DNA of 64,000 nt from Daphnia carinata (GCF_022539665.2 NC_081332.1:186001-250000); one strand, 5' to 3'; positions 24,428 to 63,754 are shown, counted from the first letter of the stretch. Numbers and translations are program-made. The notes: generated by a model not told the origin, from the letters alone.

Positions 24428-24500
24428 CGAGCCTGCCAGGAGTCGAACATGGAATCTCCTGATCCGTAGTCAGGCGCGTTATCCATTGCGCCACAACCCC
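24428..24500 (-). tRNA. tRNA-Arg(ACG), type B body with mismatched stems (likely pseudogene)
   Basis: GCGCAATGGATAACGCGCCTGACTACGGATCAGG core; acceptor- and T-stem mismatches. Confidence 0.65.
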
Positions 24501-25241: not shown

Positions 25242-25314
25242 TGAACGTGCCAGGGATCGAACCTGGAATCTCCTGCTCCGTAGGCAGGCGCCTTATCCAT
25301 TGGGCCACACATCC
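25242..25314 (-). tRNA. tRNA-Arg(ACG), type A, fully paired
   Basis: GGATGTGTGGCCCAATGGATAAGGCGCCTGCCTACGGAGCAGGAGATTCCAGGTTCGATCCCTGGCACGTTCA; all stems pair; A and B boxes intact. Confidence 0.92.
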
Positions 25315-26086
25315 ACTGGCGAATGATGAGTGACTAGTTAAGAAACTTAACCAAGGGCCACAACAGGTGTTTAACAAATGGATAAGAAATTTATTTCCCC
25401 AATTCGTTTAAGCAAATTACTTGTGTTCTGAATGTTACTTTACCCAAAGTGAGACTGGCAGACCGAAGGGAGATTCTTTTTACTTAACATACACTTATGA
25501 ACACCGGGATGGTAGGATTCAGCGACCTGGCAAGGCTTGCAGGGTTCTTTAGTGGAAATGTTTTGTACGATACTCCATTCAGTGAACCAAATTCCTTCCT
25601 CGAAATAGAAGGGATGCCTCCAGTCATTGCGGTAAGTGAATGTTGCTGACTCCGTGCCGAGTAGCAACAGAGAGAAGATGATGATGATGAGGGTGAATGA
25701 AGATGAAATAAAAATGACGATGATTTAACAAAGGGACGGCTTTATTTCCAATTTTGGAAAAGGAAAGGGAAAACTGACACGCTTGATTTGGACAAACTGA
25801 GGGGACGAGAAATGAGGCTGGGACAAAAAGGCAGCTGAACGAGACATAAATTGGAGACAACTTGTCTGGGTGGCTAACAATACTATTACTACCCCTTTCC
25901 CATGGAAAGGAGTAAAAAGAAAACAAAAAATGGGCACACAAATACTAGGCAGGCCCGTGCCCCCTACAGCCCTGCCCGCGAGGGCAGCACCGTAGGTGAC
26001 AGCGGGACCCACCGTTACAACAGGCTCTACAAACAAAAATTACAAACTTCCCACGCAGAACATACCACCAAATATAACCACCAAAT

Positions 26087-26737
26087 TTAGTGGCTGGGAA
26101 GATCCTTATACGTCTTCTTCGTGCCGCAGAGGATTTGATGATGGTCTCGGGTGTGGCACAACCCGCACTGACGAGGATGGGAACAATCGGGGAGCCTCAC
26201 GTGCCCCGCCACGGCCGTCGGGACGAAACACCCGAAACACCTCCGTTGCCCGAAGAGAAGCTCTTGTTTCTCTTGATTGGTGAGGAGCATAACCTCCTCA
26301 CATTCTGCGATCTTCTTTTTGCACGGCGTCGCTCCCGAGACGTGGCACTTAAGGAAACACATGATGTTGGGAGTGTGTACCGGAACTATATACGTAGGAC
26401 GTTCGGGGGTGACGAGCGGCGTGGGCGCAAGAGTTTCGGTCGCCTTTTCACGTTCCTTACGCAGGAGGGACCCGACCTACTCGCTTAACAGGGCTCCCCG
26501 CTCAGTTTTGAAGTGCACGTGCACGTTCACCAGGTCCTTCTGACGCTCGTCGTGTTCCTTGTCGAGGCGAACAATCGCACTTTGGTACAAGTACACTTTC
26601 TCCACGGCTTCCTTTTTTGCTATCAAAATCCCGTCAATGAGTTCCGTGAGGTTGGCCACGCACTCTTGTTCGCGTTCCCTGCTTACTTTAAGTTTTTCCT
26701 TCACGGATGCGGCTGATGGAGGTGGATAGTCTGCCAT
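26087..26737 (-). pseudogene. Extra 3' ORF of BEL/Pao element 2: coiled coil plus Gag-like zinc knuckles, one in-frame stop
   Basis: ORFs 26477-26779 and 26087-26362 are in the same frame, separated only by TAG 26477-26479 and 38 open codons. C-terminus RRCFGCF..GH..C..CGLCHTRDHHQILC. Confidence 0.7.
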
Positions 26738-27106
26738 GGCAATCACGTTGGGTAGAAGTTCACAGGTGGTACGTTTCACTATGACGAAGTTAGGTCGACT
26801 GAATGCCGTCTGCTAACCTAATAGGTTAAACAGTTTCCAATTTTCCTGATGTTTCTAAACAGCAACCGAATTGACTTTCGCCCTTTGCCCTATATTTGAA
26901 CTTGAATATAGGTGGCGTTGAGGGCAAAGGTACTTATTGACTCTTCCACCAGAGCTTAAGTTGCGATTTTCCTACGTTGTTTACATTTGTGTTTTTACAT
27001 TACGATTTACTTGTTACATTTACAATTTTGGTTTTACAAGGGGAGCTACTAATTGTAGCTCCATTACAAATCGGTATTTACATTTTACAATACTGAAATT
27101 TAATTT

Positions 27107-30100: not shown

Positions 30101-31329
30101 GCTCCATCGAATACGACACAAACTTTGGTCGATGAGCTGGAAGGGCTCACGACCCCGTGGTGTGGCAGGTACCACGTCTTGTTTGTCTCCGTCTGGGCTT
30201 CTTGGGTCGTTAGGAGCCGGGCGTGTTTTAACCCGATGTACTCCTTGACTACTGCATCGTACTTATGAGCAAACTCTTCATCCCGATGAAAACGTCGTTC
30301 AAGAGCGTAGAGCCTCTTCAATGCAGCTGCCCGATTGTTTGGGAGATTTACTTCGTCGGCTTTCCACATTAAGCCAACTTGATACTGGTTGCCAATACGT
30401 TTTACTGACGATTCGAGGATGCGTTTCCCACGTAGGTCATCCTCCGATAGAACAGGTGGTTCTATTTCTACTTCGTTGGCCTCAAGGTGCCAAAACTTCT
30501 TCACCAGCTCGTTAAGGTCTTCGGAACGTTCCACGAAGGCCAGATGAGCGATGAACGGGCGTCCGTCTTGTGGTGGACCTGTTTGTCCACCCAGACACCA
30601 GCCAAACGGCGTCTTGAAGGCGATGGGCCCAGTCGTTCCAGCCGGCGGCTTGATGGAAGCTACATGATGGTGGGCCTCTGCGACGTCGATTCCTATCAGC
30701 ACGGTCACGTCCTCTTCTTGCACGGTTGGGACGTCAATACCACGTAGGTGTTTCCATGACTCCAACTGTCGAGGGTCGATCGGCGAATTCGGCGTCACCT
30801 TCAAATTGTCGACGGCGTAAGCGTGTTTGACTTCAAACTGGCTGCTACCATCACGAGACGTTAGGGTGAAGTTTACTACGGAAGCCGTGACGTTAGACAT
30901 GGCTCCGTCATACGAGACGACTTTGATGCGTTTTGATGGCCCAACGAGTCCCAACTTTCTTACTAGGTCGCTCCGAATCAGCGTGGTGTCGCTTCCGGTA
31001 TCAAGGAAACCGAAAGTGTCGACCCACGTTTTTCCAACTCCAACACGAACCGGTACGATCTTGAAACGTATACGTCGTTTTACTGTTTCCAGATGGGTCA
31101 AGGTCCCAAGGAAAGCTGTCGAAGATGGCGCTGATGGAGCAATTGGATCCGCTAGCCTCCTCAATGGGATGAATTCGGATCCGTGAAGCAAGGTGTGGTG
31201 TCTGTTTCCAGTACAATCAGCGACAGTACAGCTGACATCCCTGGGACATTCCTTGCGTTCGTGTTTTCCCGTAAGACATAACAAACATCTTCCGGACCTG
31301 AATACCTTCTCAGCCCTTTTCGTGGGCAT
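27107..31329 (-). pseudogene. BEL/Pao Gag knuckles-PR-RT-RNase H-integrase polyprotein, frameshift near 28235
   Basis: CLLCLTGKH..C..C..HHTLLH, FLDTGSDTT, WYLPHHGV, FYVDN, FTDASSKGFGA, IPRLELQAA, GIDYFGP, SDNGTN. Confidence 0.95.
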
Positions 31330-32242
31330 GTGCTGTGTAATACTGGCGATCTCTCAGGAAGTCGTTGATCTTGAATCGTTCGGGGTTGAACTTTCATTTC
31401 GTCTACTTCCGTTCGAAGGTCTTCGATTTTAGCGGACAAATCCACCTTAACCACGTCAATTTTCTGATCCAAACCGTCCAACGTGTGGTGTGCTTCCCGT
31501 ACTAACGTGTTGTTGGCCGCGATATCTTTGGACGTGATTCTTGAACTATCAATGAGCTTACTAAGTTGTTCGCTCATACTCCTTAACGCCTTGTGAGGGT
31601 TTCTGTGATGGAAGTTGTATTTGCTTCCATCTGGGCCCTTGCCGTTTCCAACTTCAATTCCAGCTTTAGCATCTGTTCTTCTTTCTCTAACTCCCCTTGG
31701 GTTGCTTGTTGGAAAAGGCTGGCTGGTTTAGAGTTGGTACGCCTTTTTTCAGATAGCGTGGTACTACATGTGATGTCCGAAGCTACTGTCTCAATCGAAC
31801 TGGCGGACTGACTTGAGGAAGTGGCGTAGCGATTTGCGAATTTGATAACTTTAACGTGGTCGGTTTCGAAGTCTACTTCCCACTTGTCACATGCTTGACG
31901 TTGTTGCTCAGTCAGGTCGGATAAACTTTCTGTATACTGATTGTGAATTGCTTTGACTTCGTCGTATATACGAATCAATTCGTCACGCCATGCGGTTACT
32001 TGTAACTTCTTTACTCTGATGGCTCCCATCTTGTGGTCTTCCACTGCCTTTCTGAGTTGTGTCGTTAACTTCGTGTGGGCCGCCTTTCTCTTCCCACGTT
32101 TCTTCTTGAGATCGTTTTCGGGAAGTAATGGCCGTTCACTCTTCTGCCGTTCAGGTTTCGATGCGTCTACCATTGGGTTCGGGCCGTGTTCCCAAATGTG
32201 GCCAATTTCCATTTTTTCGGCTTTGAGTGCGGCTTCACTCAT
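31330..32242 (-). pseudogene. BEL/Pao gag N-terminal coiled-coil region (frameshifted)
   Basis: ORFs 31583-32242 and 31161-31577 lie between the PBS and the knuckles; helical, charged composition. Confidence 0.75.
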
Positions 32243-33135
32243 GACGTAGAAACGTTATTAAAGGCTGATAGAGTCACACGTTAACGGATGTCGATGATTC
32301 ACGTAGATACACCGATCTTTTTGTCAGATGGCAAACACGTGGTGGATAGTGGGTGCTTTCAGGCTGGCGTGGACGTCTGCCAAAGGTTTACAGGGAAAAA
32401 TACCCGAAAATTTACAAATCAAGCGAGGGTTTTTACTAACGAGGACGGGAATTGCACGTGTTCGTCAAATCCCGGGTTTCGGCACCATTTGTTGCTGACT
32501 CCGTGCCGAGTAGCAACAGAGAGAAGATGGTGATGATGAGGGTGAATGAAGTTGAAATAAAAATGACGATGATTTAACAAAGGGACGGCTTTATTTCCAA
32601 ACTTGGAAAAGGAAAGGGAAAACTGACACGCTTGATTTGGACAAACTGAGGGGACGAGAAATGAGGCTGGGACAAAAAGGCAGCTGAACGAGACATAAAT
32701 TGGAGACAACTTGTCTGGGTGGCTAACAATACTATTACTACCCCTTTCCCATGGAAAGGAGTAAAAAGAAAACAAAAAATGGGCACACAAATACTAGACA
32801 GGCCCGTGCCCCTTACAGCCCTGCCCGCGAGGGCAGCACCGTAGGTGACAGTGAAGTATTGTAGAAAAGACCACGCTTCGTCATCCGTTAAGACATCCCA
32901 AAGGTTTCTTTCTGTACAAACTCCACACATTCCCATTTTGCAGCTATCTCCACTAAGCTAGTCTCCCACTTTGCGAAACGTTGCTGTATTGGCCTTAAAT
33001 ATGGATTGAGACAAAAGCTACCAACGTCAGGCCACTTGACTGCTGGCACGGCCTCTAAGACCACACCATCACTCCATTTAAACACGGCTTCAAAAACCAT
33101 TATCAATCAATGTTCTTTACGTTCCACGTTTTCAA

Positions 33136-33182: not shown

Positions 33183-34243
33183 ACTGGCGAATTATGAGTG
33201 ACTAGTTAAGAAACTTAACCAAGGGCCACAACAGGTGTTTAACAAATGGATAAGAAATTTATTTCCCCAATTCGTTTAAGCAAATTACTTGTGTTCTGAA
33301 TGTTACTTTACCCAAAGTGAGACTGGCAGACCGAAGTGAGATTCTTTTTACTTAACATACACTTATGAACACCGTCACCGTGATGGTAGGATTCAGCGAC
33401 CTGGCAAAGGGTTCATTCTTTTAGTGATTGAAAAGAATGACTTTACGTTATTAAAGACAAATTGTAATAGGAAAAATGAACTCGGGAAGGCGTTACCACA
33501 ATGCGGAATATATTTTATTCTAATAGGCCAAAGATAATAAAGGCATTACACAGATATAAGATATAAATGGGAAACGGAAATACAAAATGGAGTCAGGCGA
33601 ATTTAGTCTTACCGTCACCGCTGTGGCGAAGATGGAATAAAGATGTCAAACGTTGAAGAGAAAAGATAAGGAAAAACGGGACTTGTCGGTCGCACAAGAA
33701 GCGATGAAGACGCTCACAATAATTATTGAATAAGAACAAATTAAACTCATTATATTTGAAGAAAATAATAACACTTGGAGCACTAAGAATGAGAGCTGGA
33801 ACTAAAACTGGAACTAGAACAAGAGAGAGCTGAAGAACTGTGGAACTAACTTTTGGGGACAAAAAGGGTATCCTTTTATACGTTTTACATGTTTGAGGGA
33901 AACATAGCATTTCCGACAGATGAGCTCCGGATATAAGTTATTGAATATCTCACGCAGCAACATTTCTTATTCAGGAAATGTATGGCGCGATGTTCTACGC
34001 ATTAGGCTCATCCAATCAGCAATAAGCAGGATGTAAAGTATAATATAAAAATAGAATTCAAGGAAATGTCAATGACACTTGAATTACTATATTTATAATG
34101 TATACTTTAAATATAATGCATAACAAACATAATATATAATTTTAATATAAAGAAAACAAACAATGAAGATAAAATATAATCAAAAGTTGTATTTTGGTGA
34201 CTTCGTTACATCACTCCCGGCGGTGCGAGATTACGTCCCGTAA

Positions 34244-35928
34244 TCAGACTTGGTAAGCGAAATCAGGCTCCGGTTCTTGAATTGGGCGACAGCATAACTT
34301 GCTAATAAGTCCGAAAAATCCACAGCCATAACAAATGCGTAAGAAAAGTAGACCCAGGAGGCATAGTACACCGATGAAGAAATAATTTTTAATAGTTTCC
34401 CACCAGCTGGTATAACTAGCCACTCCAGATGCGGATAATAAGACGTTGGTGACACTTGGACGATTATTGGTTGAAAACTCACTCGGCGAATGTTCATTCA
34501 TAGCTGCGGCAATATCAGCCATTATACTCATATGATCCATAATAGTTTCACTATACGCAGGGTTACTTTTATGTTCATAATAAAAAAATTTCACGTCTTC
34601 ATACCGAAAAGAATGCGCAAGAGTTTGTATTGGTAACACGATACTTGCGTTCACAGGCTTCCAAGTGTTATTGCGAAACGCATAAGGTATGTCATTGAAG
34701 TTCACAAATCCATTTGTCCAATAACACGGCGAATATTTAACGAGTTCCCAACCGTCCAAGTTAATTGTATAATTTTTAAATTTTGGTTGCGGTCCGCAAG
34801 ACGTTACGACTGTTTCGAAAGTCACATTTAAAGGTTTACACGAGATGACAATGGCGGTTTTTCCAAAGGCTTGCAATTTTGTGCACTTGGGTAGATCTAG
34901 ATGTGAAGCAGCTAACCAGCCATTATATTGTGCTGCAATAATTGCTCTTACATGTTTCGCATTTCTTGAATCACACTGTAAGATTTGAATTAATCGTGAT
35001 AATTCATTTTCATGGTCCGTAAGTTGATCACGAACATATTGTAAAGTAGCGGGATGGTCCAAATTTTGGCCGCCAGGTGGCGCGAGGTCTGCCAATGTTA
35101 TTGTCGACAAATTTTCCATGATGGCCGCCGTTGTAACGAAGAGTTTTGATTGGCCGAGAATATTAAAGGCATCAGATTTCTTTGAACAAGAGTTTTGTAT
35201 GGGAATACAACGCGGTTGAAAAGTTAAATGAAAATCCAATTGTTTTTTGTCATCTTGAAGGCGAAAAATTTTATCATTTCCCGTTTTTCGTATTAATTTT
35301 CCAATACCAGGTTCAATGAGATGAGCTTTTGGTTCAGATCGTTGAGTATATGTTTTGTCCCAAACTAATGTCAAATGATTATGCGACAAATGACCTGTTG
35401 AGGCAGAAGCAATTCCTATCGGCGTAGAAAAATTACTATCTTCCACATCTTGATATAGGTGAATGTTTTCGAGCACACAACTAATAATTTCCACGTCGAT
35501 CGTTTGTAACCAATGACCAAAAATTTCAGGTTCACGGTCGAATACAAAATTATTTTCCTCAGCAGTCATTTTTTGATCTTCGCACCGAAGACTGTTAATC
35601 ATATCGTTGCACTCATTTGGCGTAGTGTCAAGTGGAATTTTATCCGGCACAATCACCAATTGTCCAAAAAAATTCATGGTGACATGTCGAATTTGTTTCC
35701 ACTTCGCACAAATATATCCTGGAAATTGAACTGCGGCGCGAACTTCACTATGCACTGAATATTGTACGTCAATGGAGTGTTCATCTTTATTTCCGGATGA
35801 CAATCGTCATCCGAAAATTGAATTATTCCCATTTTTGATGATTCAGTACAATCGCATACGGTCGTTTCAAAGGCTCGAACGTGAAGCCCAAAAAGACATA
35901 GCAGTAAGACAATTGGAAAAGGCGACAT
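34244..35928 (-). pseudogene. env: Envelope-like type I membrane glycoprotein, probably class III fusion protein; one frameshift near 35780
   Basis: Signal peptide MSPFPIVLLLCLFGLHVRA followed by VCDC; Cys-rich ectodomain (GYICAKW..NFFG..NEC..C) with NxS/T sites; C-terminal TM YFFIGVLCLLGLLFL with a Cys-rich tail; last ORF before the 3' LTR. Confidence 0.85.
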
Positions 35929-37267
35929 TTCTACATATGTCAAAAAAATAAAAAAAAAACAATACATAAGAAAAATTTAACAATACACAGAGCAGTGGCC
36001 AAAAATATTCTACATCGACATTGGGTTTTTATAATATTTTGGATTATATATATATATAGTTGAAATAAAATAAAAGGTAAAGAAAGAAGAGAAGAGAAGG
36101 TAAAAGTAAAAAACTTTCCGACGGCTTTGAAAGGTCAACGGTCTCCCGTCGGCTTTTCAGTAGCCGCGCTACAGCAAAAGATAGGAAAATAAAAGGGTAT
36201 CGCATTATAACTGTGTTTTGGGCAGAAGGAAAATTTATTTTTTAATCGAAAGTGATATTACTGGGAAGAGGCGAAGATGCTCGTATTTTTCAGAAGGAAA
36301 TAATTGAAAAAGATTGTTTCGTTTAATTATGCGGAGAAGAAAAGAAACGTTTTAAATTCTATGGCGGAAAAAGTCCGTGCGCCAAAGGTCAAACTCAGAT
36401 TTTCGATTTTTTTCTAAGTCCAACGCAATGGAAAAAGGACTTTGTTAGAAACGGAGAGAAAAGATGTGAAACATGAACAGGTGGGCGGAGCTAACGCGCT
36501 TGGAGGGGGACAAGGAATTTTTGGAAATATGAACGCGAGTGGAAGGGGAGGCTTGTTAGTTGCCCTCTGGCAAAATTGGGGAAGTAAAAACATTTTTTCT
36601 TCGCTAGCTGCGAAGTGTTGGAACAAATTCAGTGTTCGCTCGAAAGGGAAAGTGAAAAGAAGTGTAAAGTGAGAGACGCGTTGTGAAAAAAAATCTGGGC
36701 GGTGGCTACATTCAAGAAGAAAAAGTGACTTGGAGATGCAGTAGAAGAGGAATTGTGTGTGTAAAACAATTTGTGCGTTTAGAAGAAAAGTTTTGTTTCT
36801 ACATCATTGATAGTTTTTCATGTTTGTGCTATTGCTGTTAATGTAATTGTATGAAATAAAGGTTTAATAAAATGTTCTAAACTTACTCGGTATCGGATTG
36901 TTAATAATGTTATACTTAAGAAAAACGGAACACAGAATTTAAGGGCATATAATTTTGAAGGAAAACATTTTTCAAAAACACATATAATTTTTAACATCGT
37001 TTATAAGATAAAAAGAAAACAAAAGTGAGAAATAAAATAAAATTCTCTAGTAACATGTTTTGTGCATTCGCTATAACTTTTTTTTTTTTTTTTTTTTTTT
37101 TTTAATTATTATTATTGAGAAAGAATTAAGACAAGACAAGTGTAAGATTAAAAAGTTGTATATAATGAATAATAATATGAAGAAAACAAGAGATAAAATT
37201 ATAAAAGAAATGAATGTGGAAAAAAAACAAACAAAAATAATAGTATAACGAAAACAATAATGAAAGG

Positions 37268-37840
37268 TCAATCATCAATGGTCACGACAATCGGGCCATT
37301 GGGGCGTCTTCCGGCCCGTCCGCAGGTAGGGCAGACGTCTTGTATCCACCATTGGGATAGCGCCCAATTTGGTGGTGGCGGCATGCGGTTCTGTGGGTCA
37401 AGTTCTAAAATTGCTTGAAGGTTTTCCACCGCTCCTTGCCAATTCTCCTCGTATAAAGCGTTTAGTAGCGCCAATCTTAAAACTCCGGTGCGAAGGTAAA
37501 GTTCATGAAGATTTAAATCGCGTCGGGTAGGCCAGGTGGGGCGTGCGGGTTCCGGCATAAGTGTAGCGATTGGCCTTACGCGCACCGGGTTGGATCTTGT
37601 TTGAGGTGGAGCCGGGTTGGGCTGGACCCGGGGTGGAGCACGGATGCGGGTACGGGATGGCAAAGTCACTTACGGTGGGAAAGGTACCCGGGGCGGAACA
37701 GGTGGAGGGGTAATGCGGTTCGATGGCCCCGCTTCCGGCTCATCGAAATCAATTGGCCTTAGCCGCCAAGCACTGTTGGAGCTATGCCGACGAGTGGTGT
37801 ACGGGGAAAGCCGATAATCTCCCGTATGGTCCTTAGACAT
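37268..37840 (-). pseudogene. Gypsy accessory ORF B (~190 codons, Pro/Arg-rich N-terminus, TPR-like + CxxC C-terminus), one in-frame stop
   Basis: ATG 37840; TAA at 37670-37672; the frame continues to EENWQGAVENLQAILELDPQNRMPPPPNWALSQWWIQDVCPTC. Confidence 0.7.
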
Positions 37841-37844
37841 TTTG

Positions 37845-38003
37845 TTAAAATGATTTTTCAAGACTTGTGAGAAAGGATTGATCCCTTTCCTTGCGCCCAC
37901 GTTTGTTATATAAGCAAAAAGTGTCATTGTCAGCTTTCTTGAAATAACTTTTAATGTTTCTTCTTGATGTTGTAAGCAATTCTTCTTTTGTTTCCGAATC
38001 CAT
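37845..38003 (-). CDS. Possible small accessory ORF (52 aa, MDSETKEE...)
   Basis: ATG in an A-rich context; its stop lies 4 nt before the ORF B ATG; shares the ATGGATTCGGA start with ORF A. Confidence 0.35.
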   Translation of the reverse strand: MDSETKEELLTTSRRNIKSYFKKADNDTFCLYNKRGRKERDQSFLTSLEKSF

Positions 38004-38659
38004 TTTTTGTTGCAAAGCAAACGAAGAGATAACCATATATGGGTAACATGAAGAAGGGAATTGATTACAATTTCCAAGAAGTACAAGCATATATAAAAAA
38101 AAAATTTCATTTATAATAAACATATATATATAACAGAATTAACAATTCGTACAACTTAAAAATAACTATAAGAAACAGACAAAAATTGTCGTCAAATTCT
38201 ATTTATATATATTTGAAAATATATATATATATTGAACTGTATTCGCACCCTTGCCGTTCGCTGATCCAATTTCTAATACAGTAGTGTAACACTACTCTTT
38301 CTTCTGCTATTTTTGAATTTCTTTTATTCATTATTAAAACTAACATTTTTTTTTCCAATGTCTACACCAACTGTGGCTCGTAAAAGAAAAGAAAACCCCT
38401 TTTTTTTTCTTTTATTATCATTCGTAAGAGCCAAAATTAAAATTGTATACCCAAAATTTGTATCTAAAGGATAAGTATATTGTTTGTCGGATAAGCGCAA
38501 GAGCAAGAGATACTAAAAGTTGACAAAAGGACACATGAATAGAGTCATAAGAAAAATAACACATACACAAAAGGAATAATATAATAGGCCACACAAAAAG
38601 CACTACAACAAATAAACAAATTTTATAAAGACGATAAAATCTTCAGCTGTCCTGCTTCT

Positions 38660-39199
38660 TTAATTATTCTTGCAGAATCTGCAACGGTAGTGGGGATTCC
38701 AATCCTCAGGAAACCATCCGTAGAGAGGTGGGCTCCTGTTCTCAGGGTCCAAATCCAAAATCCTTTTCAATTTGACAACTGCTTTTCTCCAATTTTCCTG
38801 GCGGATGTGGAGTTGAAGTTCGTCCGCCAAATCTCTGGTCCGTTTCCGCATCTCCCTGTTGAAACGCCTCTTTTCTTTACGCCAGTTGTGTTCGTCTTCT
38901 GAATCTTCAGAATGACATTCTTGGTTTCGGTAGGGTTCTAACATTTCATCACAAATCTTATCGGTTTCATCTTTATACTTTCGTTGTTCTTTAGTCATTG
39001 CTGGATGCAGAAACTCCTCTAAATCCTTCTCCCTCTTGATTTCTTCTTCTTCGTCAGTGCTTTCTATCTCTCCTTCTTCGAGCTTGCACTTTTTTCCCGC
39101 GGGCTCTTCCTCTCCCATGGACAATTGCGAAGTCATCGCCACTTCGATGGTTTGGGCGACGTCCCAGGCGTTCAGCTCAACAGTACTGTCCGAATCCAT
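38660..39199 (-). CDS. Gypsy accessory ORF A (179 aa, acidic N-terminus, TPR-like + CxxC C-terminus)
   Basis: Uninterrupted ORF in AT-rich flanks; ends QENWRKAVVKLKRILDLDPENRSPPLYGWFPEDWNPHYRCRFC; paralogous to ORF B. Confidence 0.8.
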   Translation of the reverse strand: MDSDSTVELNAWDVAQTIEVAMTSQLSMGEEEPAGKKCKLEEGEIESTDEEEEIKREKDLEEFLHPAMTKEQRKYKDETDKICDEMLEPYRNQECHSEDSEDEHNWRKEKRRFNREMRKRTRDLADELQLHIRQENWRKAVVKLKRILDLDPENRSPPLYGWFPEDWNPHYRCRFCKNN

Positions 39200-39254
39200 G
39201 TTGTGCTCAAGATCACCAACAAACTGTTGAATATCTGCCACTATGTGTCACCAG

Positions 39255-39262
39255 CTTATATA
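39255..39262 (-). promoter_or_regulatory. Candidate internal TATA box (TATATAAG) for accessory ORF A
   Basis: Lies between the pol stop (39301) and ATG 39199, followed by an ACAGTT Inr-like motif. Confidence 0.4.
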
Positions 39263-39300
39263 GTCCTTTTTCCATCATTAAAAAAAAAAAAAATTTCAAA

Positions 39301-42300
39301 TTAAAATCCAGCGGTGTATCGAATAGGCTTCCTGCGATTTCTTTGTGGACGTCCGGTGTTCGAGACCGTTTGAGGATCATCTTTTTTCAAATTTTCTTGA
39401 GAAGTTCCAGAATCTTGTGAATTCCGTTGAATGTAATCCGTCTTCATTGGGATTTCCATAGAATTTTGTTGATTTTCCCTTGCTTGAAATTGCTGGTTTT
39501 CAAATCCATTTCCGGTGTGTATTTTCATCTCTTCATCCAGAAGTGCGTTGTTTACGAGAGAAATGTTTACAATTTCTTGGACATCACACAAATCATTAAA
39601 CTCATCTATAAGCCCATCCTCGTTTTTTGATAAATCAATTGTTTGGGTTGAAATCGTTTTACGAAATCGACTCTCAAACTCAAAAGGGGTCTCAAATGGT
39701 GGACAATGTTCGGTCTTCCAAAGCATTGTTTCGTACAAAGGTTTTAATCTGTTAACATGAGTACGTTGACAGATATAAGAGTTATCCGCTATATCTACAG
39801 TATTATTAGAATACACTTTTACTACCCTATATGGTCCTTTATATTTCGAAGTGAATTTCCTGCTATCCCTATCTTTAACTACGCGAATATCCAATAACAC
39901 TCTATCGCCTACCACATATCGTCTTTCTTTGGCGCGTTTGTTATATTGTTCCCTCTGACGCTCCCTAGCTTTTCCGCTTTCTTCTCTAACCCTTTGGAAA
40001 CTATAACGCAAACGTTCCGCTAAATTACCTACATAATCCGAAGAAGATTTAAATGTTTTTGGGGACGCATCAAGAAATTCATTTATTGGAATATTGGGAT
40101 CCCTACCGTGGAGTAAATAATAAGGGGTGTCAAGTGTTGAGGCGTGCACTGAGCTACGATAAGCAAATAATACGTCGTCTAACATATCTTCCCAATTGGA
40201 ATGCTCTCCATCTTTTAATTCTTTCCTTAACATTGTTGTTAATGTCCTATTGAATCTCTCTGTTTCCCCATTACTGGCTGGATTATATGCAGTTGTTAAC
40301 CTTTGATCAATCTTCAATTTCTTACAAAAATATCGAAATAATTTTGAAGTGAAATTAGTCCCACGATCAGAAAGAATTGCTTTTGGTATCCCATGACGTA
40401 CAATTATAGTCTTATATATACACTCGGCTGTTGTTAACGCAGTTTGATCTTTTAAAGCAACTGCTTCTACCCATCGACTAAAATAATCAGTAATAACTAA
40501 AATATAACTATTTCCGTTAGGCGAAATCGGAGTAATAGGCCCTAAAAAGTCCATTCCAATTACTTGAAAAGGAGCTTTGGCGACTTCATGAGGGTGCAAA
40601 ACTGCTCTATATGTAGAGGAAGTGTTAGTATACATATTTCGCAAGCTTGGCAATACTCTTTAATATCGCCCCTCATGTTAGGCCAATAATAATGGTTTTT
40701 TACTTTTAAATACGTCTTATAAAATGCTAAATGCCCTCCCATCGGTGCGTCATGTAATTCCTTGAGCACTAGATGGCGGAGCGCTACAGGTAACACCAAT
40801 TGATAATTTACGTCGCTGCGCTTGCTATTTGACAAAGGCAACTCATGCCGATAAAGAGTACCTTCGATGACTTCAAAATATTCAATTTCATTTACCCAAT
40901 CTGGTCTAGTTTGTTGAAAAATTTCATCCAATTCTCCTTTCTCTAAATAATTCCTAATAGCTATACAAAGTTCATCTTCTAATTGTTTCTCACAAATAAA
41001 CTTAATATTTTTCCCAGTTTGAATACTCGCCACCTTTAAACGTGACAAACAGTCAGCATTTTGGTGAATACGACCAGGCCTATACTTTAACTCATAATTG
41101 GTCGCAGCTAATAATATAGCCCATCGTCCTAATCTCCCATTGTTATCTTTTTGATCCTTAAGCCACTGTAGTGGACGATGATCACTAATAATCTCGAATG
41201 GCTTATCCAAAAGATAATGTCGAAAATGTTTAATTGCATCAATCACTGCTAAAGCTTCTTTCTCTGTAGTGGCATATTTCATCTCAGCTTTTGTTAATTG
41301 TCTACTAGAATACGCTATCGGATGTTCGTGGCCATTTTGTATCTGCGAAAGTACCGCTCCTATTCCATAATCACATGCGTCTGTGAAAAGTAAAAATTTT
41401 TCATTGAAATTGGGGTAAACTAATACTGGGGGCGTAACGAGAGAAGTTCGTAATTTTTCAAAGGCATTTTGCTCCTCAGTACCCCAAACAAAAGGTTTTT
41501 TGCTAAGGTCTTTATGAGTTAATCTGGTCAATGGCTTAGCTATTGATCCAAAATTTTGAATAAATCTCCTATAATATCCGGCTAATCCCAAAAATGATCT
41601 TACTTCGTCTATAAAAGAAGGTGCTTTATAATTCACTATTTTATCGATTTTCCCTGGATCTGGCTTAATTCCTTCAGTCTTGGCCTAAATAATTTACCGA
41701 TCGTTTAATAAACTGGCATTTTTTTAGTTTTAATTTTAAATTTGCATCCTGTAGTAGTTGAAAAATTTCCCGAATATCCCTCAAATGGTCCTCGAAATTA
41801 TCCGAAAAGATTATTACATCATCCAAATAAACTAATGCCTTACTTCCCAAAACGTCTTTCAGTACATAATTCATTAGTCTTTGAAATGTGGCAGGTGCAT
41901 TGCACAAGCCAAATGCCATACGCTTAAATTCGTATAGATTATTTTCTACCACAAATGCTGTTTTTTCTATAGCTGGCTCATATACCTGAATTTGCCAATA
42001 TCCCGCAGCTAAGTCGAGAGTAGTAAAAAATTTCTTCCCATACAATTTATCCAATGTTTCATCTATCCTTGGCATAGGAAACGAATCTTTCTTTGTGATA
42101 CTATTTAATTTCCGATAATCGACGCAAAACCTGACTTCTCCACCTTTTTTCTCAACTAAAACCACAGGTGAAGCCCATGGCGAATGCGAGTATTGAATTA
42201 CATTCGCATCAAGCATTTCTTGTACCTTATCCTCCAATAATTTTCTTTGATTATTTGTAACTCTATATGGGCGTTGTCGAATAGGGCCTCGTCCCTGTGT

Positions 42301-43239
42301 ATCAATTGTATGTTTTATAAGATCTGTGTTGCCTAATTCTGAATCTTTTGCAGCGAACAAGTCGTGAAAGTCATTTAATAATTTAGCGAGCTGTGTTTGA
42401 AATTCGGGGTCGACCTCCGGAATTACAATAGGCTCTTTTACTACGTTAGGCTTGTCCTCAACTTTATTTAAAGAAATTTTTCCGATCGCTCGAGTAGTAA
42501 CTTCGATGCCACCTAACTTCGTATCCCTAGGAATTTTGACTTGATTTAACGAATGATTTTCAACTAGAATATTATATTTTCCATCTCTCGATACTTTTCC
42601 TACGAACTCCTCAATAAAAACGCCGGCCGGCAAATCTTCTGCTGGGGTAAATATAAAAGCTGTATTCGGCGGAACAAACGGAAATGACCCTTTCATTTGC
42701 GCGGCAATTACTAGCGACGTCTGACGAGATAACGTCGTCTTTTTGACCGAAGTAACTGCCATGTCCGGAATGCTAGAAATAGCTGATCCCTGCTTATCTC
42801 TTGCTAAATAAATGCTCTTGGCTTCTCCATCAAGTCGAAATCCGTGTTTCTGGATTGCGTCCCATCCAAGGATACAGTCCTCAGAAACACCATTTGTAAC
42901 AATAAACTCTTGCTCCAAAACTGACTCTCCGTATCGCACGGGCAAAGTAACGCTCCCCAGCGTATGTAATTTTTTCTCCCCTACATCGTATAAATCAAAA
43001 TCAAGTTGACTGCAGATCACTTGACCTCTTTGGGGTAATTTCTTAAATAATTTCTCATGAATAATACTCTTAGACGCTCCTGTATCGAATAATGCTTGAA
43101 ATGGGATCTGATGAATTTTCAATGGAATTCTCGGTGTCGATTCATTCGTTATGGTTGTTAATTTTGCGACTTGTCGGGATTTACACGGAGGCTCCCTATC
43201 AACTGACCCGAAGTTACAGTTGATACCTATTGGTTTCCC
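39301..43239 (-). pseudogene. pol: Gypsy pol (PR, RT, RNase H, integrase), frameshifts near 41680 and 40640
   Basis: [86 protein letters not shown]. Confidence 0.96.
43173..43239 (-). promoter_or_regulatory. -1 programmed ribosomal frameshift signal
   Basis: G GGA AAC in the gag frame (43239-43233), 7-nt spacer, 9-bp stem TATCAACTG/CAGTTGATA. The -1 frame is open into the protease. Confidence 0.85.
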
Positions 43240-46009
43240 TGATTCGGAGGCGGACCTGGAATGTTAGGCCTACTCTGGTTTTTTGCCTTTGGACAGTTGT
43301 TTGATTTATGGCCAATTTCCCGACATGAATAGCATATTGGTGGCTGAGCTTGTTCCAAACTTTGCCGTTGATATTTGTAACAATTTGTCTGAGAATGACC
43401 CTTATATCCACAAAAATTGCAAATCAGCTGTGGCTGCGTAGGCTTATGGTGAGAATCACCAGCTGGTTTTGAAAAAGGGGTTTTATGAGCTGTAGGCCTA
43501 CCCGGGAATTTATTGAAAGGTTGTGCGCCATTGTTATTGTTATTCTGCTGCGGAGGTCTCCAATTCCTATCCTGGATACTGTTACTAGTTTGGAACGAAA
43601 CTTGCTTTTTATACGGTGCGCTTGATACGTTTTTATCAAATTGCAATTGCCTTACCGCTTGCATTAGCTCAAGAAGTGCGCTCTTAATTTCCTCCTTTTC
43701 AGTTTTTGGGTCATCGACTTGTTTGCTTCCCTGTCTGATATTTGCTACGGCATTTTTGACGAATTCTTTTTGCTCCAATATTATTTCCTTTAGTTCTTTT
43801 AATTCTGCGTCTTTGGTGTCAGGAGGCTCAGTCACTGCCCTAATAAAATCATGTTTTTCCCTATTCGTTTCCATGGCCTCCAGTCGCAATGCATACATTC
43901 GTGTTGCCGAAATAAGATCATTAAAATTCTTAAATTCTTTATATTTAACTTTCGATTGTAATTTGGAATCCAACCCCTCTATAAATTTTTGCATAAGAAT
44001 TATAGCAAAAGATGCTTCTGAATAGCCTACAGGATATGCGCGTTTGAAAATTTCCTGCAAACGATGAGCATATTCTATAATCTTTTCCCCTGGCTTACGC
44101 TTAGCTTTATTAAACTTCTTTTGATAAAAGTCAGCATTTTCGTCACCATGAAAATGATCAAGAAGAGATTCTTTAATTAAAGCATAGTTGTGAGGATGAC
44201 CCTTCAAAGTTGCCTGAATAATCGAGAAAGCTTTATCAGCCTATTTTGCCCTTAACATCTGAATAATTTTCCCCTCAGACCAACCTGATCCTTCTACTAT
44301 ACTTTCAAAAGATTCTAACCAGGAGTCAAAACGCACCAGGGGATTTCCAGAAAAAGAAGGAAGTAGCTGTAAACGGGAAAAAGTGTGTTGATTATTTTGG
44401 AAATCGTTCAAATCATCGACCGTGGCCGTCATGTTTGAACAAGTTTCCGCCATGTTTGGATTAAATTTTAAAAAATTCAAAGTTCTTCCCTGGGAATTTT
44501 GAGGGTGTTCTGAAATGTCGTTTGTAATTGCCTTAAATTCCCCTGCGTTGTATCCGACTGGCTGGGTGGGCGGGCTCGAAGACAGGGTAGAGGGTACGTA
44601 GGACAGTGTAGGGTTTGTGACTGATTGAAATGATAGTTTCTTCTGCGCGACCGTTTCCTCTTTGGAATGCTTCCCGACAGCGGCGATGTTTGTTGGATTG
44701 GCGTGCTTTGTTGCTGCGTTGGTCTCGTTTGTATGAACGTCAGCGATTGTCTCAATGTTTGTTCCGTTTGCGTGATTATTGGCTTGATGTCGCTCGCCTG
44801 CTGTGCGAAGAACGGGTTGTTGGCTTCCGGAAAATTGTTCAGTTTGTCCAAAAGGAATATGATTTCCGGCTGTAGTACCTCCAAATTGTTGATGAGTTGT
44901 AGTGTCTTTAGGTATGCCGCTAGGTTGGCTACTTCCTTCAGGAACGTTCGTTGGGACGCCAGCAAGATCTCTTCCAGATGAAGGGATGTGTCGCTCACTT
45001 TGGTGATGATTTCCACGTATCTCCCGTCCTCGTCTCTGTCGGTGATGTCCCGTCTTGGAACGAAGCCGAATAGTTCTCGCTTTGTTGTTGGTGTGACCAC
45101 TTGAAGGTCTATTATGTTGTAAATTTGTCCGTGTAGGCAAGTCAGAACCTGTCTCGCGTGTCGTGTGAAAATTTTCTTGAGCTCCGTCACAATTTCCTCC
45201 GTCTGCTTCTTCGTCTTCTTCGTGATCGGTACACTGGCTTTCACCTCCAGAATGGATGTCAGCTACTTCAGAAGTGTCTTCGGTTGTTTCCGATCCGTTA
45301 GTATTAATTTTTCGGCGTCGTAATTCCTCTGAATGATCCCAGATGATCCCAGATTTTCGGGTCGCTCGATTGGAAGTCCTTCTCCCTCTCCTTGAGGCTC
45401 TTGATGGCTAGCAGTAGGAACGGTAGCTGGCTGTTCGGTAGTTGGAAGATGGTGTCCCCTTTCTTCTTGATCTCTTGGAACAGGTGCTGGAGGTTGACGT
45501 TGAGCTGGTCTTCCATTGGTTGTCTTTTTTTTTGCAAACAAACCCGAGACTTGTTCAAAAAAAGCGTTTGTTGGGGAAGTGTTTGTGGAAACGGTTTTCT
45601 TGGGTGAAAGACGGTTTACTAGTTGGGCTATGAAGGAAGGAGAATTTCTTACGGTCGAGGTATCAGCTTTACTTTGAGCTCGTGGTTTGCGAACGTTTGA
45701 AAGGTCTACTGGCTTTACTAACTCATACGCAGAGTTCGATCTTAACTTTCTTAGCTGGGGATTATTTGGAATTGCACTAGGCTTCAAAACAGGAGAGGCA
45801 GATTTCCTGATAGTTTCTGTTGCTTTTCTCGAAGTTTTATTACCCGTAAACTTATCAGATCCAGCAAGATTTGAAGTGGAAGTTTTATCAAAATTAAGGG
45901 TTCTGGCTACACCTTCATCAATTTGAATAACTGGCTCAATAGGACTTTTAATAGTGGATACAGGTGTGCGAGAAAGTTTATGCTTACTAGAAAAAATATT
46001 ATCCGTCAT
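43227..46009 (-). pseudogene. gag: Gypsy gag with long N-terminal extension, capsid and two CCHC knuckles; in-frame stops at 45263 and 44241 and one frameshift
   Basis: LPSFSGNPLVRFDSWLESFE..W, CNFCGYKGHSQTNC, CYSCREIGHKSNNC. ORFs 45263-46009 and 44477-45244 are co-frame, as are 44241-45140 and 43227-44207. Confidence 0.88.
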
Positions 46010-46847
46010 TGTGGGTGAGTTCGATAGATCGCTGCCACCATTATGTAAAGCATTCTTTTAGTGATTGAAAAGAATGACTTTACGTTATTAAAGACAAATT
46101 GTGATAGGAAAAATGAACTCGGGAAGGCGTTACCAGAATGCCGAATATATTTTATTCTAATAGGCCAAAGATAATAAAAGCATACACAGATATAAGATAT
46201 AAATGGGAAACGGAAATACAAAATGGAGTCAGGCGAATTTAGTCTTACCGTCACCGCTGTGGCGAAGATGGAATAAAGATGTCAAACGTTGAAGAGAAAA
46301 GATAAGGAAAAACGGGACTTGTCGGTCGCACAAGAAGCGATGAAGACACTCACAATAATTATTGAATAAGAACAAATTAAACTCACTATATTTGAAGAAA
46401 ATAATAACACTTGGAGCACTAAGAATGAGAGCTGGAACTAAAACTGGAACTAGAACAAGAGAGAGCTGAAGAACTGTGGAACTAACTTTTGGGGACAAAA
46501 AGGGTATCGTTTTATACGTTTTACATGTTTGAGGGAAACATAGCATTTCCGACAGATGAGCTCCGGATATAAGTTATTGAATATCTCACGCAGCAACATT
46601 TCTTATTCAGGAAATGTATGGCGCGATGTTCTACGCATTAAGCTCATCCAATCACCAATAAGCAGGATGTAAAGTATAATATGAAAATAGAATTCAAGGA
46701 AATGTCAATGACACTACAAATTACTATATTTATAATGTATACTTTAAATATAATGCATAACAAACATAATATATAATTTTAATATAAAGAAAACAAACAA
46801 TGAAGATAAAATATAATCAAAAATTGTATTTTGATGACTTCGTTACA

Positions 46848-46907
46848 GATCGAACCTGGAATCTCCTGATCCGTAGTCAGGCGCGTTATCCATTGCGCCA
46901 CACATCC
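46848..46907 (-). pseudogene. tRNA-Arg(ACG) truncated by the Gypsy insertion in its T-arm
   Basis: LTR end ttaca abuts gatcgaacctgg; the 3' 13 nt of the tRNA are missing. Confidence 0.9.
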
Positions 46908-47519
46908 ACTGGCGAATGATGAGTGACTAGTTAAGAAACTTAACCAAGGGCCACAACAGGTGTTTAACAAATGGATAAGAAATTTATTTCCCCAATTCGT
47001 TTAAGCAAATTACTTGTGTTCTGAATGTTACTTTACCCAAAGTGAGACTGGCAGACCGAAGGGAGATTCTTTTTACTTAACATACACTTATGAACACCGT
47101 CACCGTGATGGTAGGATTCAGCGACCTGGCAAGGCTTGCAGGGTTCTTTAGTGGAAATGTTTTGTACGATACTCCATTCAGTGAACCAAATTCCTTCCTC
47201 GAAATAGAAGGGATGCCTCCAGTCATTGCGGTAAGTGAAGTATTGTAGAAAAGACCACGCTTCGTCATCCGTTAAGACATCCCAAAGGTTTCTTTCTGTA
47301 CAAACTCCACACATTCCCATTTTGCAGCAATCTCCACTAAGCTAGTCTCCCACTTTGCGAAACGTTGCTGTATTGGCCTTAAATATGGATTGAGACAAAA
47401 GCTACCGACGTCAGGCCACTTGACTGCTGGCACGACCTCTAAGACCACACCATCACTCCAGTTAAACACGGCTTCAAAAACCATTATCAATCAATGTTCT
47501 TTACGTTTCACGTTTTCAA

Positions 47520-50500
47520 TGAACCTGCCAGGGATCGAACCTGGAATCTCCTGATCCGTAGTCAGGCGCGTTATCCATTGCGCCACAAATCCACTGGCGA
47601 ATGATGAGTGACTAGTTAAGAAACTTAACCAAGGGCCACAACAGGTGTTTAACAAATGGATAAGAAATTTATTTCCCCAATTCGTTTAAGCAAATTACTT
47701 GTGTTCTGAATGTTACTTTACCCAAAGTGAGACTGGCAGACCGAAGGGAGATTCTTTTTACTTAACATACACTTATGAACACCGTACCGTGATGGTAGGA
47801 TTCAGCGACCTGGCAAGGCTTGCAGGGTTCTTTAGTGGAAATGTTTTGTACGATACTCCATTCAGTGAACCAAATTCCTTCCTCGAAATAGAAGGGATGC
47901 CTCCAGTCATTGCGGTAAGTGAAGTATTGTAGAAAAGACCACGCTTCGTCATCCGTTAAGACATCCCAAAGGTTTCTTTCTGTACAAACTCCACACATTC
48001 CCATTTTGCAGCAATCTCCACTAAGCTAGTCTCCCACTTTGCGAAACGTTGCTGTATTGGCCTTAAATATGGATTGAGACAAAAGCTACCGACGTCAGGC
48101 CACTTGACTGCTGGCACGACCTCTAAGACCACACCATCACTCCAGTTAAACACGGCTTCAAAAACCATTATCAATCAATGTTCTTTACGTTTCACGTTTT
48201 CAATGAACGAGCCTGCCAGGAATCGAACCTGGAATCTCCTGATCCGTAGTCAGGCGCGTTATCCATTGCGCCACACATCCACAGGCGAATGATGAGTGAC
48301 TAGTTAAGAAACTTAACCAAGGGCCACAACAGGTGTTTAACAAATGGATAAGAAATTTATTTCCCCAATTCGTTTAAGCAAATTACTTGTGTTCTGAATG
48401 TTACTTTACCCAAAGTGAGACTGGCAGACCGAAGGGAGATTCTTTTTACTTAACATACACTTATGAACACCGTCACCGTGATGGTAGGATTCAGCGACCT
48501 GGCAAGGCTTGCAGGGTTCTTTAGTGGAAATGTTTTGTACGATACTCCATTCAGTGAACCAAATTCCTTCCTCGAAATAGAAGGGATGCCTCCAGTCATT
48601 GCGGTAAGTGAAGTATTGTAGAAAAGACCACGCTTCGTCATCCGTTAAGACATCCCAAAGGTTTCTTTCTGTACAAACTCCACACATTCCCATTTTGCAG
48701 CAATCTCCACTAAGCTAGTCTCCCACTTTGCGAAACGTTGCTGTATTGGCCTTAAATATGGATTGAGACAAAAGCTACCGACGTCAGGCCACTTGACTGC
48801 TGGCACGACCTCTAAGACCACACCATCACTCCAGTTAAACACGGCTTCAAAAACCATTATCAATCAATGTTCTTTACGTTTCACGTTTTCAATGAACGTG
48901 CCAGGAGTCGAACCTGGAATCTCCTGATCCGTAGTCAGGCGCGTTATCCATTGCGCCACAAATCCACTGGCGAATGATGAGTGACTAGTTAAGAAACTTA
49001 ACCAAGGGCCACAACAGGTGTTTAACAAATGGATAAGAAATTTATTTCCCCAATTCGTTTAAGCAAATTACTTGTGTTCTGAATGTTACTTTACCCAAAG
49101 TGAGACTGGCAGACCGAAGGGAGATTCTTTTTACTTAACATACACTTATGAACACCGTCACCGTGATGGTAGGATTCAGCGACCTGGCAAGGCTTGCAGG
49201 GTTCTTTAGTGGAAATGTTTTGTACGATACTCCATTCAGTGAACCAAATTCCTTCCTCGAAATAGAAGGGATGCCTCCAGTCATTGCGGTAAGTGAAGTA
49301 TTGTAGAAAAGACCACGCTTCGTCATCCGTTAAGACATCCCAAAGGTTTCTTTCTGTACAAACTCCACACATTCCCATTTTGCAGCAATCTCCACTAAGC
49401 TAGTCTCCCACTTTGCGAAACGTTGCTGTATTGGCCTTAAATATGGATTGAGACAAAAGCTACCGACGTCAGGCCACTTGACTGCTGGCACGACCTCTAA
49501 GACCACACCATCACTCCAGTTAAACACGGCTTCAAAAACCATTATCAATCAATGTTCTTTACGTTTCACGTTTTCAATGAGCCTGCCAGGAGTCGAACCT
49601 GGAATCTCCTGATCCGTAGTCAGGCGCGTTATCCATTGCGCCACAAATCCACTGGCGAATGATGAGTGACTAGTTAAGAAACTTAACCAAGGGCCACAAC
49701 AGGTGTTTAACAAATGGATAAGAAATTTATTTCCCCAATTCGTTTAAGCAAATTACTTGTGTTCTGAATGTTACTTTACCCAAAGTGAGACTGGCAGACC
49801 GAAGGGAGATTCTTTTTACTTAACATACACTTATGAACACCGTCACCGTGATGGTAGGATTCAGCGACCTGGCAAGGCTTGCAGGGTTCTTTAGTGGAAA
49901 TGTTTTGTACGATACTCCATTCAGTGAACCAAATTCCTTCCTCGAAATAGAAGGGATGCCTCCAGTCATTGCGGTAAGTGAAGTATTGTAGAAAAGACCA
50001 CGCTTCGTCATCCGTTAAGACATCCCAAAGGTTTCTTTCTGTACAAACTCCACACATTCCCATTTTGCAGCAATCTCCACTAAGCTAGTCTCCCACTTTG
50101 CGAAACGTTGCTGTATTGGCCTTAAATATGGATTGAGACAAAAGCTACCGACGTCAGGCCACTTGACTGCTGGCACGACCTCTAAGACCACACCATCACT
50201 CCAGTTAAACACGGCTTCAAAAACCATTATCAATCAATGTTCTTTACGTTTCACGTTTTCAATGAACCTGCCAGGGATCGAACCTGGAATCTCCTGATCC
50301 GTAGTCAGGCGCGTTATCCATTGCGCCACAAATCCACTGGCGAATGATGAGTGACTAGTTAAGAAACTTAACCAAGGGCCACAACAGGTGTTTAACAAAT
50401 GGATAAGAAATTTATTTCCCCAATTCGTTTAAGCAAATTACTTGTGTTCTGAATGTTACTTTACCCAAAGTGAGACTGGCAGACCGAAGGGAGATTCTTT

Positions 50501-63681: not shown

Positions 63682-63754
63682 GCCCGGTTAGCTCAGTCGG
63701 TAGAGCGCGGGACTTTTAATCCTGAGGTCGAGGGTTCAAGTCCCTCATCGGGCG
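63682..63754 (+). tRNA. tRNA-Lys(TTT)
   Basis: Third copy. Confidence 0.93.

What the first reader, a model, noticed from the sequence alone, without database searches (positions are those of the whole stretch)
33414..46847. Complex endogenous-retrovirus-like Gypsy element: gag-pol, accessory genes and class III env
Seen: LTR-PBS(Leu)-long gag-(-1 frameshift)-pol-ORF A-small ORF-ORF B-~1.3 kb noncoding-splice acceptor-env-LTR, all in one orientation and 13.4 kb long. Known: insect errantiviruses are simple gag-pol-env elements with baculovirus-F-type env; accessory genes between pol and env are typical of complex vertebrate retroviruses. Inference: an independently evolved, potentially infectious invertebrate retrovirus lineage with accessory genes. 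This copy is defective, but the ~98% LTR identity suggests recent relatives. Best candidate for an undescribed system in the window.
Basis: partly seen in the sequence, partly recalled or inferred. Interest (0 to 1): 0.88.

Follow-up and report, generated by a model that had tools for sequence, protein, structure and literature searches.

The report
Water-flea retrovirus with duplicated accessory gene
This is a broken copy of a known kind of enveloped, retrovirus-like jumping gene, likely from a water flea, that also carries two copies of a conserved small gene between its enzyme and envelope genes, each behind its own TATA box, and this gene likely encodes a regulator like those of complex retroviruses.

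Summary
The anatomy is real: 98%-identical LTRs, Leu-type PBS, long gag, a -1 slippery site with a conserved pseudoknot, pol, a 3.4-kb spacer, and an env whose intact Daphnia magna relative folds as a class III fusogen. This copy is defective (7 breaks, clipped 3' LTR) and sits in a tRNA-Arg array.

The backbone is not new: Daphnia Ty3/gypsy 'errantiviruses' with HSV/gB-type env are listed by Chary and Hayashi (eLife 2026), and one relative matches their Dpul_errantivirus_4.

What I did not find in print is the spacer content. ORF A and ORF B are paralogues of one Daphnia protein family (disordered arm plus a conserved TPR-like helical hairpin). The family lies next to this env in a metagenome contig and in D. 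pulex, D. sinensis and D. magna annotations, twice in D. magna. All 5 post-pol ORFs examined have a TATA box 63-99 nt upstream and a downstream poly(A)-type signal, so they likely have their own promoters. The 'small ORF' is probably not a separate gene. Function (likely nuclear regulator) and infectivity are untested. The scan has noted unrelated Gypsy accessory genes on other DNA, not this family.

The parts
46044..46847 (-). 5' LTR, TGT...ACA, with a TATA-like box at 46516
46029..46040 (-). Primer-binding site, tRNA-Leu-like
   Evidence: compared with PBS columns in PMC13524379 supplement
43227..46009 (-). Long gag (about 927 codons); broken by stops at 45263-45265 and 44241-44243 and a frame change near 44,500-44,600
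   Evidence: relatives have single 710- and 826-aa gag ORFs. The N-terminal ~500 codons have no detected homologue, so their being gag is inferred from frame continuity and relatives' lengths
43173..43239 (-). -1 slippery heptamer and H-type pseudoknot at the gag-pol junction
39301..43263 (-). pol: protease, RT, RNase H, integrase; frame changes near 41,678 and 40,629
39200..39262 (-). TATA box (39262) and Inr-like leader of ORF A: predicted internal promoter
38660..39199 (-). ORF A, 179 aa, unbroken: acidic disordered arm, NLS-like motif, basic helix, conserved helical hairpin
38323..38416 (-). Two AATAAA signals after the T-rich 3' region of ORF A
37845..38003 (-). 52-codon 'small ORF'; probably not a gene (contains ORF B's TATA box at 37912)
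37268..37840 (-). ORF B, paralogue of ORF A, 190 codons with an in-frame stop at 37670-37672
37078..37106 (-). ATTAAA running into a long A tract after ORF B
35931..37267 (-). Non-coding stretch ending in a pyrimidine tract and YAG (predicted splice acceptor for env)
34244..35928 (-). env, class III fusion glycoprotein; one frame change near 35,780
34211..34245 (-). Short inverted repeat and purine-rich tract before the 3' LTR; similar in L004, L005, L006, L007, L009
   Evidence: seen by eye, not folded
33414..34210 (-). 3' LTR, last 7 nt missing
46848..46908 (-). Interrupted tRNA-Arg(ACG) gene (insertion in the T-loop/B-box region) at the edge of a 685-bp tandem array

Best explanation
This is a defective copy of a Ty3/gypsy element with a class III env, likely from a Daphnia-like water flea, whose subclade carries between pol and env a conserved small gene (here duplicated as ORF A and ORF B) that is likely transcribed from its own internal TATA promoter and likely encodes a nuclear regulator of the element. 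Steps: (1) LTR-driven genomic RNA gives Gag and, by -1 frameshifting at a slippery site plus pseudoknot, Gag-Pol (motifs and conservation shown; frameshifting inferred). (2) Env is made from a spliced RNA that uses the acceptor just before its ATG (motif conserved in relatives; splicing inferred; an internal promoter for env is not excluded) and would let particles fuse with a neighbouring cell, probably soma to germline (fold predicted; infectivity untested). (3) Each accessory ORF is a self-contained cassette, TATA - ORF - T-rich 3' region - poly(A)-type signal (shown in sequence; use inferred). (4) The protein is a disordered, usually acidic and Trp-studded arm plus a TPR-like helical hairpin, often with an NLS-like motif; my split for its job is about 40% transactivator or genomic-RNA processing/export factor (Tas-, Rev- or CERV-like, including read-through of the internal poly(A) signals), 25% Argonaute/Piwi-binding silencing suppressor, 20% trafficking or assembly adaptor, 15% other (all inferred).
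For: Env: 68 homologues, named ones all Daphnia, many full length; 11 and 10 of 27 aligned members hit Rhabdo_glycop_FD and Monjiviricetes_fusion (best E 3.7e-5 and 1.3e-5); model of D. magna relative P0001 (pLDDT 74) matches herpesvirus gB (E 1.9e-15) and xinmo-, chu- and rhabdo-like G (E to 2.6e-21); two hydrophobic loop tips conserved. Accessory family: A vs B 39% over 61 aa, E 3e-9; profile search returns 21 short proteins with the same core and 13 hits in a second search, 10 of them new; every named source is Daphnia. Protein-level selection: in 36 core codons A/B/L001 share 14-17 residues, 10-11 of them by different codons; third positions 9-16 identical against second 20-25; no blastn match there. 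Synteny: L001 is pol-ORF-1.1 kb-intact env; consecutive accessions for family member and env in D. pulex (EFX66265/66), D. sinensis (KAI9550782/83) and D. magna (KAK4027291/90), and the last env gene model itself contains a second family copy; four other gene calls join pol pieces to the core. TATA 63-99 nt upstream in 5 of 5 post-pol ORFs (chance 0.02-0.12 each by shuffling; 4 of 194 control windows in pol) and A(A/T)TAAA 161-274 nt downstream in 5 of 5. YAG within 8 nt of the env ATG in 7 of 8 long-spacer elements, absent in the no-spacer control L015. NLS-like motif in 7 of 18 members against 1.3 shuffled.
Against: No expression data: no sequencing run was listed, no host genome was held. 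The TATA window was chosen after seeing the sequences, and AATAAA is common in such AT-rich DNA. Only 1 of 29 fetched loci holds the family core (most in this clade are too short to reach it); L004, in the same integrase clade, and L019 carry unrelated ORFs in that slot, and 5 of 8 measured relatives have no spacer at all, so the gene is dispensable for the wider family. The hairpin has no specific structural match (best Z 6.9, none of 127 viral matches under E 0.001) and the core is not consistently basic (net charge -7 to +7), which weakens an RNA-binding Rev-like reading. Internal poly(A) signals would cut the genomic RNA unless they are read through. ORF A being unbroken says nothing (probability about 0.67 under neutral decay). 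Synteny in the three Daphnia genomes rests on accession order and contig length, not on DNA read here.
Confidence: 0.62

Rival explanations
1. The accessory protein is a counter-defence factor: its WG/GW-type motifs would hook Argonaute/Piwi proteins and blunt small-RNA silencing of the element.
For: WG/GW outside the core in 9 of 18 members against 3.7 shuffled (6 of 2000 shuffles reach it); repeated DDWG in P0086; fast-evolving disordered arm, duplication and turnover fit an arms race. GW-motif viral suppressors exist (PMC6563293, search listing and start of abstract only).
Against: ORF A and ORF B have no WG/GW outside the conserved tail; members are related, so counts are not independent; the invariant part is the hairpin, not the GW motifs.
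Confidence: 0.2
2. The cassettes are passengers: processed mRNAs with their poly(A) tails captured into the spacer and carried along without use to the element.
For: Long A tract after ORF B, A-rich signals after ORF A and L001; different ORFs occupy the slot in L004 and L019; the core resembles one TPR unit of cellular proteins.
Against: Protein core conserved while DNA is saturated across three Daphnia species; retained TATA boxes are not expected in retrocopies; no non-retroelement parent gene seen among named hits.
Confidence: 0.1
3. The accessory protein is a cytoplasmic adaptor for capsid trafficking or budding (acidic-Trp motifs, Pro-rich stretches, a hairpin like ESCRT-associated ones).
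For: Acidic-Trp motifs in 15 of 18 members against 10.2 shuffled; top fold row is the Vta1 C-terminal domain and several ESCRT-III chains are listed.
Against: Z 6.9 is within the background for helical hairpins by the tool's own note; NLS-like motifs are enriched; no TM segment.
Confidence: 0.12
4. The 34-39 kb segment is a locus-specific insertion or assembly chimaera.
For: The element lies in a tandem array with two BEL/Pao insertions, and its 3' junction is damaged.
Against: Same order in L001 and three Daphnia annotations; integrase and env trees both place the window with L001 and L004.
Confidence: 0.02

Closest known systems
Branchiopod HSV/gB-type errantiviruses (Chary and Hayashi, eLife 2026, PMC13524379; read: abstract, sections 5 part 1, 6 part 1, 8, 14, term searches, supplement rows)
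   Same: Ty3/gypsy gag-pol-env in Daphnia and Ceriodaphnia with class III env; Leu-type PBS in some; locus L016, an env homologue found here (33% identical), matches the printed Dpul_errantivirus_4 env over the 27 residues compared by eye.
   Different: The window's env subclade is separate from L016's in both trees; four subclade-typical peptide motifs are absent from their ENV alignment file. Their screen allowed up to 1000 nt between pol and env (3000 nt in a manual extension); here the gap is 3372 nt. No accessory ORF is discussed in the main text ('accessory', 'extra ORF' 0 hits).
CERV of C. elegans Cer1 (PMC10309623; abstract and passages read)
   Same: Ty3/gypsy accessory protein, nuclear, needed for export of unspliced genomic RNA: the closest functional model.
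   Different: CERV is 517 aa, made from a spliced RNA and replaces env; here the gene is 130-230 aa, coexists with env and seems to have its own promoter. No sequence comparison with CERV was run.
sORF1/sORF2 of Drosophila MDG1-group elements (PMC11952523; abstract and section 7 read)
   Same: Small accessory ORFs; sORF1 is a nuclear helix-turn-helix-like protein on a short transcript ending at an internal poly(A) site.
   Different: Upstream of gag, LTR-driven, in env-less elements.
Oikopleura Tor3b/4b internal promoter Penv (PMC4402516; passages read); foamy-virus internal promoter for accessory genes (mentioned generically there; tas/bet detail recalled)
   Same: Transcription from an internal promoter after pol in an enveloped retroelement.
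   Different: In Tor the promoter drives env itself; no accessory gene.
[quoted passage not shown]
   Same: Extra ORFs after pol are a known phenomenon in LTR retrotransposons.
   Different: Those are enzymes or TM proteins; this family is not among the ones named in the passages read.

Membership tests
Ty3/gypsy (Metaviridae) | LTRs with TG...CA, PBS, purine tract | tested here: met
   3' LTR clipped
Ty3/gypsy (Metaviridae) | pol order PR-RT-RNaseH-IN | tested here: met
Ty3/gypsy (Metaviridae) | RT phylogeny against GyDB/Repbase references | not tested
   no reference set held; only an integrase tree among 10 relatives
Ty3/gypsy (Metaviridae) | Target-site duplication | tested here: inconclusive
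   3' flank deleted into the array unit
Branchiopod HSV/gB-type errantiviruses | gag-pol-env order with class III env (signal peptide, fusion loops, TM anchor) | tested here: met
Branchiopod HSV/gB-type errantiviruses | env homology to a listed element | tested here: met
   L016 env 33% to the window's env, E 3e-83, and matches Dpul_errantivirus_4
Branchiopod HSV/gB-type errantiviruses | C2c cysteine-bridge configuration | not tested
   figure not visible; 7 invariant cysteines in alignment A1
Branchiopod HSV/gB-type errantiviruses | Intact ORFs and multiple near-identical copies in the host genome | tested here: inconclusive
   this copy has 7 breaks; host genome not held; a sister env cluster has 25 members at 90% identity, with several 560-615-aa D. 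magna proteins among the 15 listed
Insect errantiviruses with F-type env | Baculovirus/paramyxovirus F-like class I env with furin site | tested here: not met
   class III fold; no R-x-K/R-R site
Complex retroviruses (works like) | Conserved accessory gene in addition to gag, pol, env | tested here: met
Complex retroviruses (works like) | Accessory transcript and regulatory activity | not testable with these tools
   no RNA run listed
Retroviridae | RT in the Retroviridae clade; class I env | tested here: not met
   class III env; pol relatives are the gypsy elements of PMC13524379
TPR-repeat proteins | Three or more tandem TPR units above Pfam cut-off | tested here: not met
   single unit, TPR_2 E 0.13-0.17

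The most novel reading that the evidence does not exclude
A clade of still-active water-flea enveloped retroelements has independently evolved the foamy-virus plan: a modular slot between pol and env holding one or two self-promoted accessory genes, whose product is a dedicated transactivator, RNA-processing switch or piRNA-pathway antagonist that controls production of infectious class III-enveloped particles.
Probability: 0.35. Interest if true: 0.75.

Novelty: new variant of a known kind. Interest (0 to 1): 0.55.

Why it matters
Enveloped invertebrate Ty3/gypsy elements are described as simple gag-pol-env. A conserved, duplicating, apparently self-promoted gene beside an intact fusogen gene would be a convergent 'complex retrovirus' in a laboratory model animal (Daphnia) with RNAi, CRISPR and natural full-length copies, so its regulatory or anti-silencing role can be tested. 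It also shows that screens capping the pol-env distance miss a subclade.

Tried and rejected
No host genome held. Sequencing-run search: none was listed. Single-sequence search with ORF A found nothing at E 0.1 among 28 candidates; the family appeared only with a profile. Viral contigs: 33 pattern matches, none an env relative; the family alignment had no stretch usable for a scan. PDB sequence search with the env profile: nothing under E 0.1. Protein atlas gave no answer. Fold searches with the ORF A model: no specific match. Purine-rich antisense frames at 36,400-36,900 considered as a hidden gene: all three frames broken, no tblastx support beyond low-complexity hits; rejected. 52-codon ORF rejected as above. 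tRNA-gene targeting: 0 tRNA genes in 29 loci, but these contigs mostly end at the LTRs, so uninformative; two BEL/Pao elements in the same array suggest a tolerant site. Rfam: only tRNA. First GW count (29 against 9.9) was inflated by related sequences and the conserved tail; redone. The env tree is the quick version; L024, L025 (fragmentary) and L017 (same element as L016) were left out of the spacer count. P0110 was dropped from the family as a doubtful three-repeat hit; the long multi-stretch hits were taken as generic TPR-like proteins without looking them up. Literature searches for this architecture; none described it; Rho et al. 2010 (PMC2996953, passages) lists Daphnia gypsy elements up to 12.9 kb without mentioning extra ORFs in the passages shown. 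Repbase, subscription journals, figures and the authors' GitHub files were not visible and may hold this family.

Full report
Observation. The element lies on the minus strand from 46847 to 33414. The LTRs share 782 of 796 aligned columns. The 5' LTR ends in ACA at 46044 and is followed by a PBS that 5 of 29 fetched relatives share. The 3' LTR lacks 7 nt and joins the tRNA array unit several hundred bases further on, so no target-site duplication can be read. The element interrupts a tRNA-Arg(ACG) gene at the edge of a 685-bp array of 19 such genes that also holds two BEL/Pao elements. Pfam gives zinc knuckle, protease, RT, RNase H and integrase in Ty3/gypsy order. A slippery heptamer at 43233-43239 is present at the gag end in 4 of 4 relatives, and an H-type pseudoknot follows, with 93% of cells paired and 4 two-sided changes, all contributed by the window's sequence. 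Seven breaks are seen: two stops and a frame change in gag, two frame changes in pol, one in env, one stop in ORF B. That load fits neutral decay at about 2% LTR divergence (inference).

Env. The larger env piece has 68 homologues; all named ones are Daphnia magna, pulex or sinensis, the best at 64% identity, so the host is likely a daphniid not well represented in the databases (inference; no run was listed). A model of the intact D. magna relative P0001 (pLDDT 74, pTM 0.37) matches herpesvirus gB in the PDB (E 1.9e-15) and xinmo-, chu- and rhabdo-like glycoproteins in BFVD; TM-scores are low (0.2-0.45), as expected for elongated proteins modelled in different conformations. Signal peptide, TM anchor and two hydrophobic loop tips are conserved. 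Class III is therefore well supported; closest viral family is not resolved.

Known backbone. Chary and Hayashi (PMC13524379) do not name Daphnia in the main text but their supplement lists Daphnia and Ceriodaphnia errantiviruses with 'ENV_HSV', 15 of them in the Branchiopoda_C2 alignment. Locus L016 matches Dpul_errantivirus_4 over the 27 residues compared by eye, and the PBS printed for it equals the window's. In an integrase tree the window groups with L001 and L004 (100/100), apart from L016 and L019; the quick env tree agrees. So the window belongs to a sister subclade of a published group. Four peptide motifs typical of this subclade are absent from their alignment file, and the fifth hits only an unrelated flatworm row; their pol-env distance limits would tend to miss a 3372-nt spacer.

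Accessory gene. ORF A and ORF B share a 61-residue C-terminal region (39%, E 3e-9). ORF B's upstream frame is continuous from an ATG at 37840 through one stop, with the same high GC as the 3' part (0.57 and 0.56 against 0.29-0.31 in the spacers), so I read it as one broken 190-codon gene. L001 carries the same core in a 202-aa ORF between pol and an intact env. A profile of the three found 181 proteins; most of the 150 listed are long multi-repeat proteins (TPR-like resemblance), and 21 are short proteins with the same core. Of 20 looked up, 7 are annotated D. magna or D. sinensis hypothetical proteins and 13 are unnamed assembly products; a second search gave 13 hits with two D. pulex names. 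Family gene and env have consecutive accessions on the same contig in D. pulex, D. sinensis and D. magna; in D. magna the env gene model contains a second family copy, which repeats the window's two-copy layout. Codon patterns show selection on the protein. Against generality: of 8 relatives with a measurable spacer, 5 have none, L004 and L019 hold unrelated ORFs, and only L001 of 29 loci shows the core.

Expression model. All 5 post-pol ORFs have a TATA box 63-99 nt upstream (4 of 194 pol control windows do) and an A(A/T)TAAA 161-274 nt downstream. The window was chosen after the fact, so this is strong but not formal. Env has YAG within 8 nt of its ATG in 7 of 8 long-spacer elements. I infer separate short transcripts for the accessory genes and a spliced env RNA; internal promoters are documented for Tor env (PMC4402516) and internal polyadenylation for MDG1 sORF1 (PMC11952523).

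Function. The ORF A model has one confident helical hairpin (residues 105-150) and is otherwise low-confidence; fold searches give only background matches. NLS-like motifs (7 of 18 against 1.3), WG/GW (9 against 3.7) and acidic-Trp motifs (15 against 10.2) are enriched outside the core, with members not independent. A nuclear regulator, by analogy with CERV (PMC10309623; lead from earlier finding e1-8075350), is my best guess; silencing suppression and trafficking are the rivals.

Verdict. New variant of a known kind: a published group of enveloped Daphnia Ty3/gypsy elements, in a subclade with a conserved, duplicating, probably self-promoted accessory gene that six literature searches did not find described. 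Interest 0.55.

Noticed in passing
window 47519-59926: 19 tRNA-Arg(ACG) genes in a 685-bp tandem array; four more ARAGORN calls in array remnants at 12438-25315.
   Followed up: partly
window 19395-24100 and 25641-32851: Two BEL/Pao LTR elements (LTR pairs 97.7% and 98.3% identical) inserted in the same tRNA array.
   Followed up: partly
window 61240-63953: A second tandem array of about 1.13 kb with tRNA-Met, Lys, Ser, Gln.
   Followed up: no
L004:1830-2399: Unrelated 189-aa ORF with a C-terminal TM-like segment in the same post-pol slot, behind a TATA box; no Pfam hit.
   Followed up: partly
L019:4600-4911: Unrelated 103-aa Cys-containing ORF after pol with the same CTATATAAG box and a perfect Inr; its close relative L016 has no spacer, so the slot was filled independently.
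   Followed up: partly
L015:8772-9218: Acidic 148-aa ORF downstream of env in a relative without pol-env spacer.
   Followed up: no
window 45263-46009; L005, L015, L016 gag starts: Gag has a long low-complexity N-terminal arm with a short amphipathic, basic-ended helix by eye, a possible membrane-targeting matrix analogue.
   Followed up: no
window 1-17800: Further repeats (1-1021 vs 13000-14017; 1598-4245 vs 15162-17808, 86-91% identical) without long ORFs.
   Followed up: no
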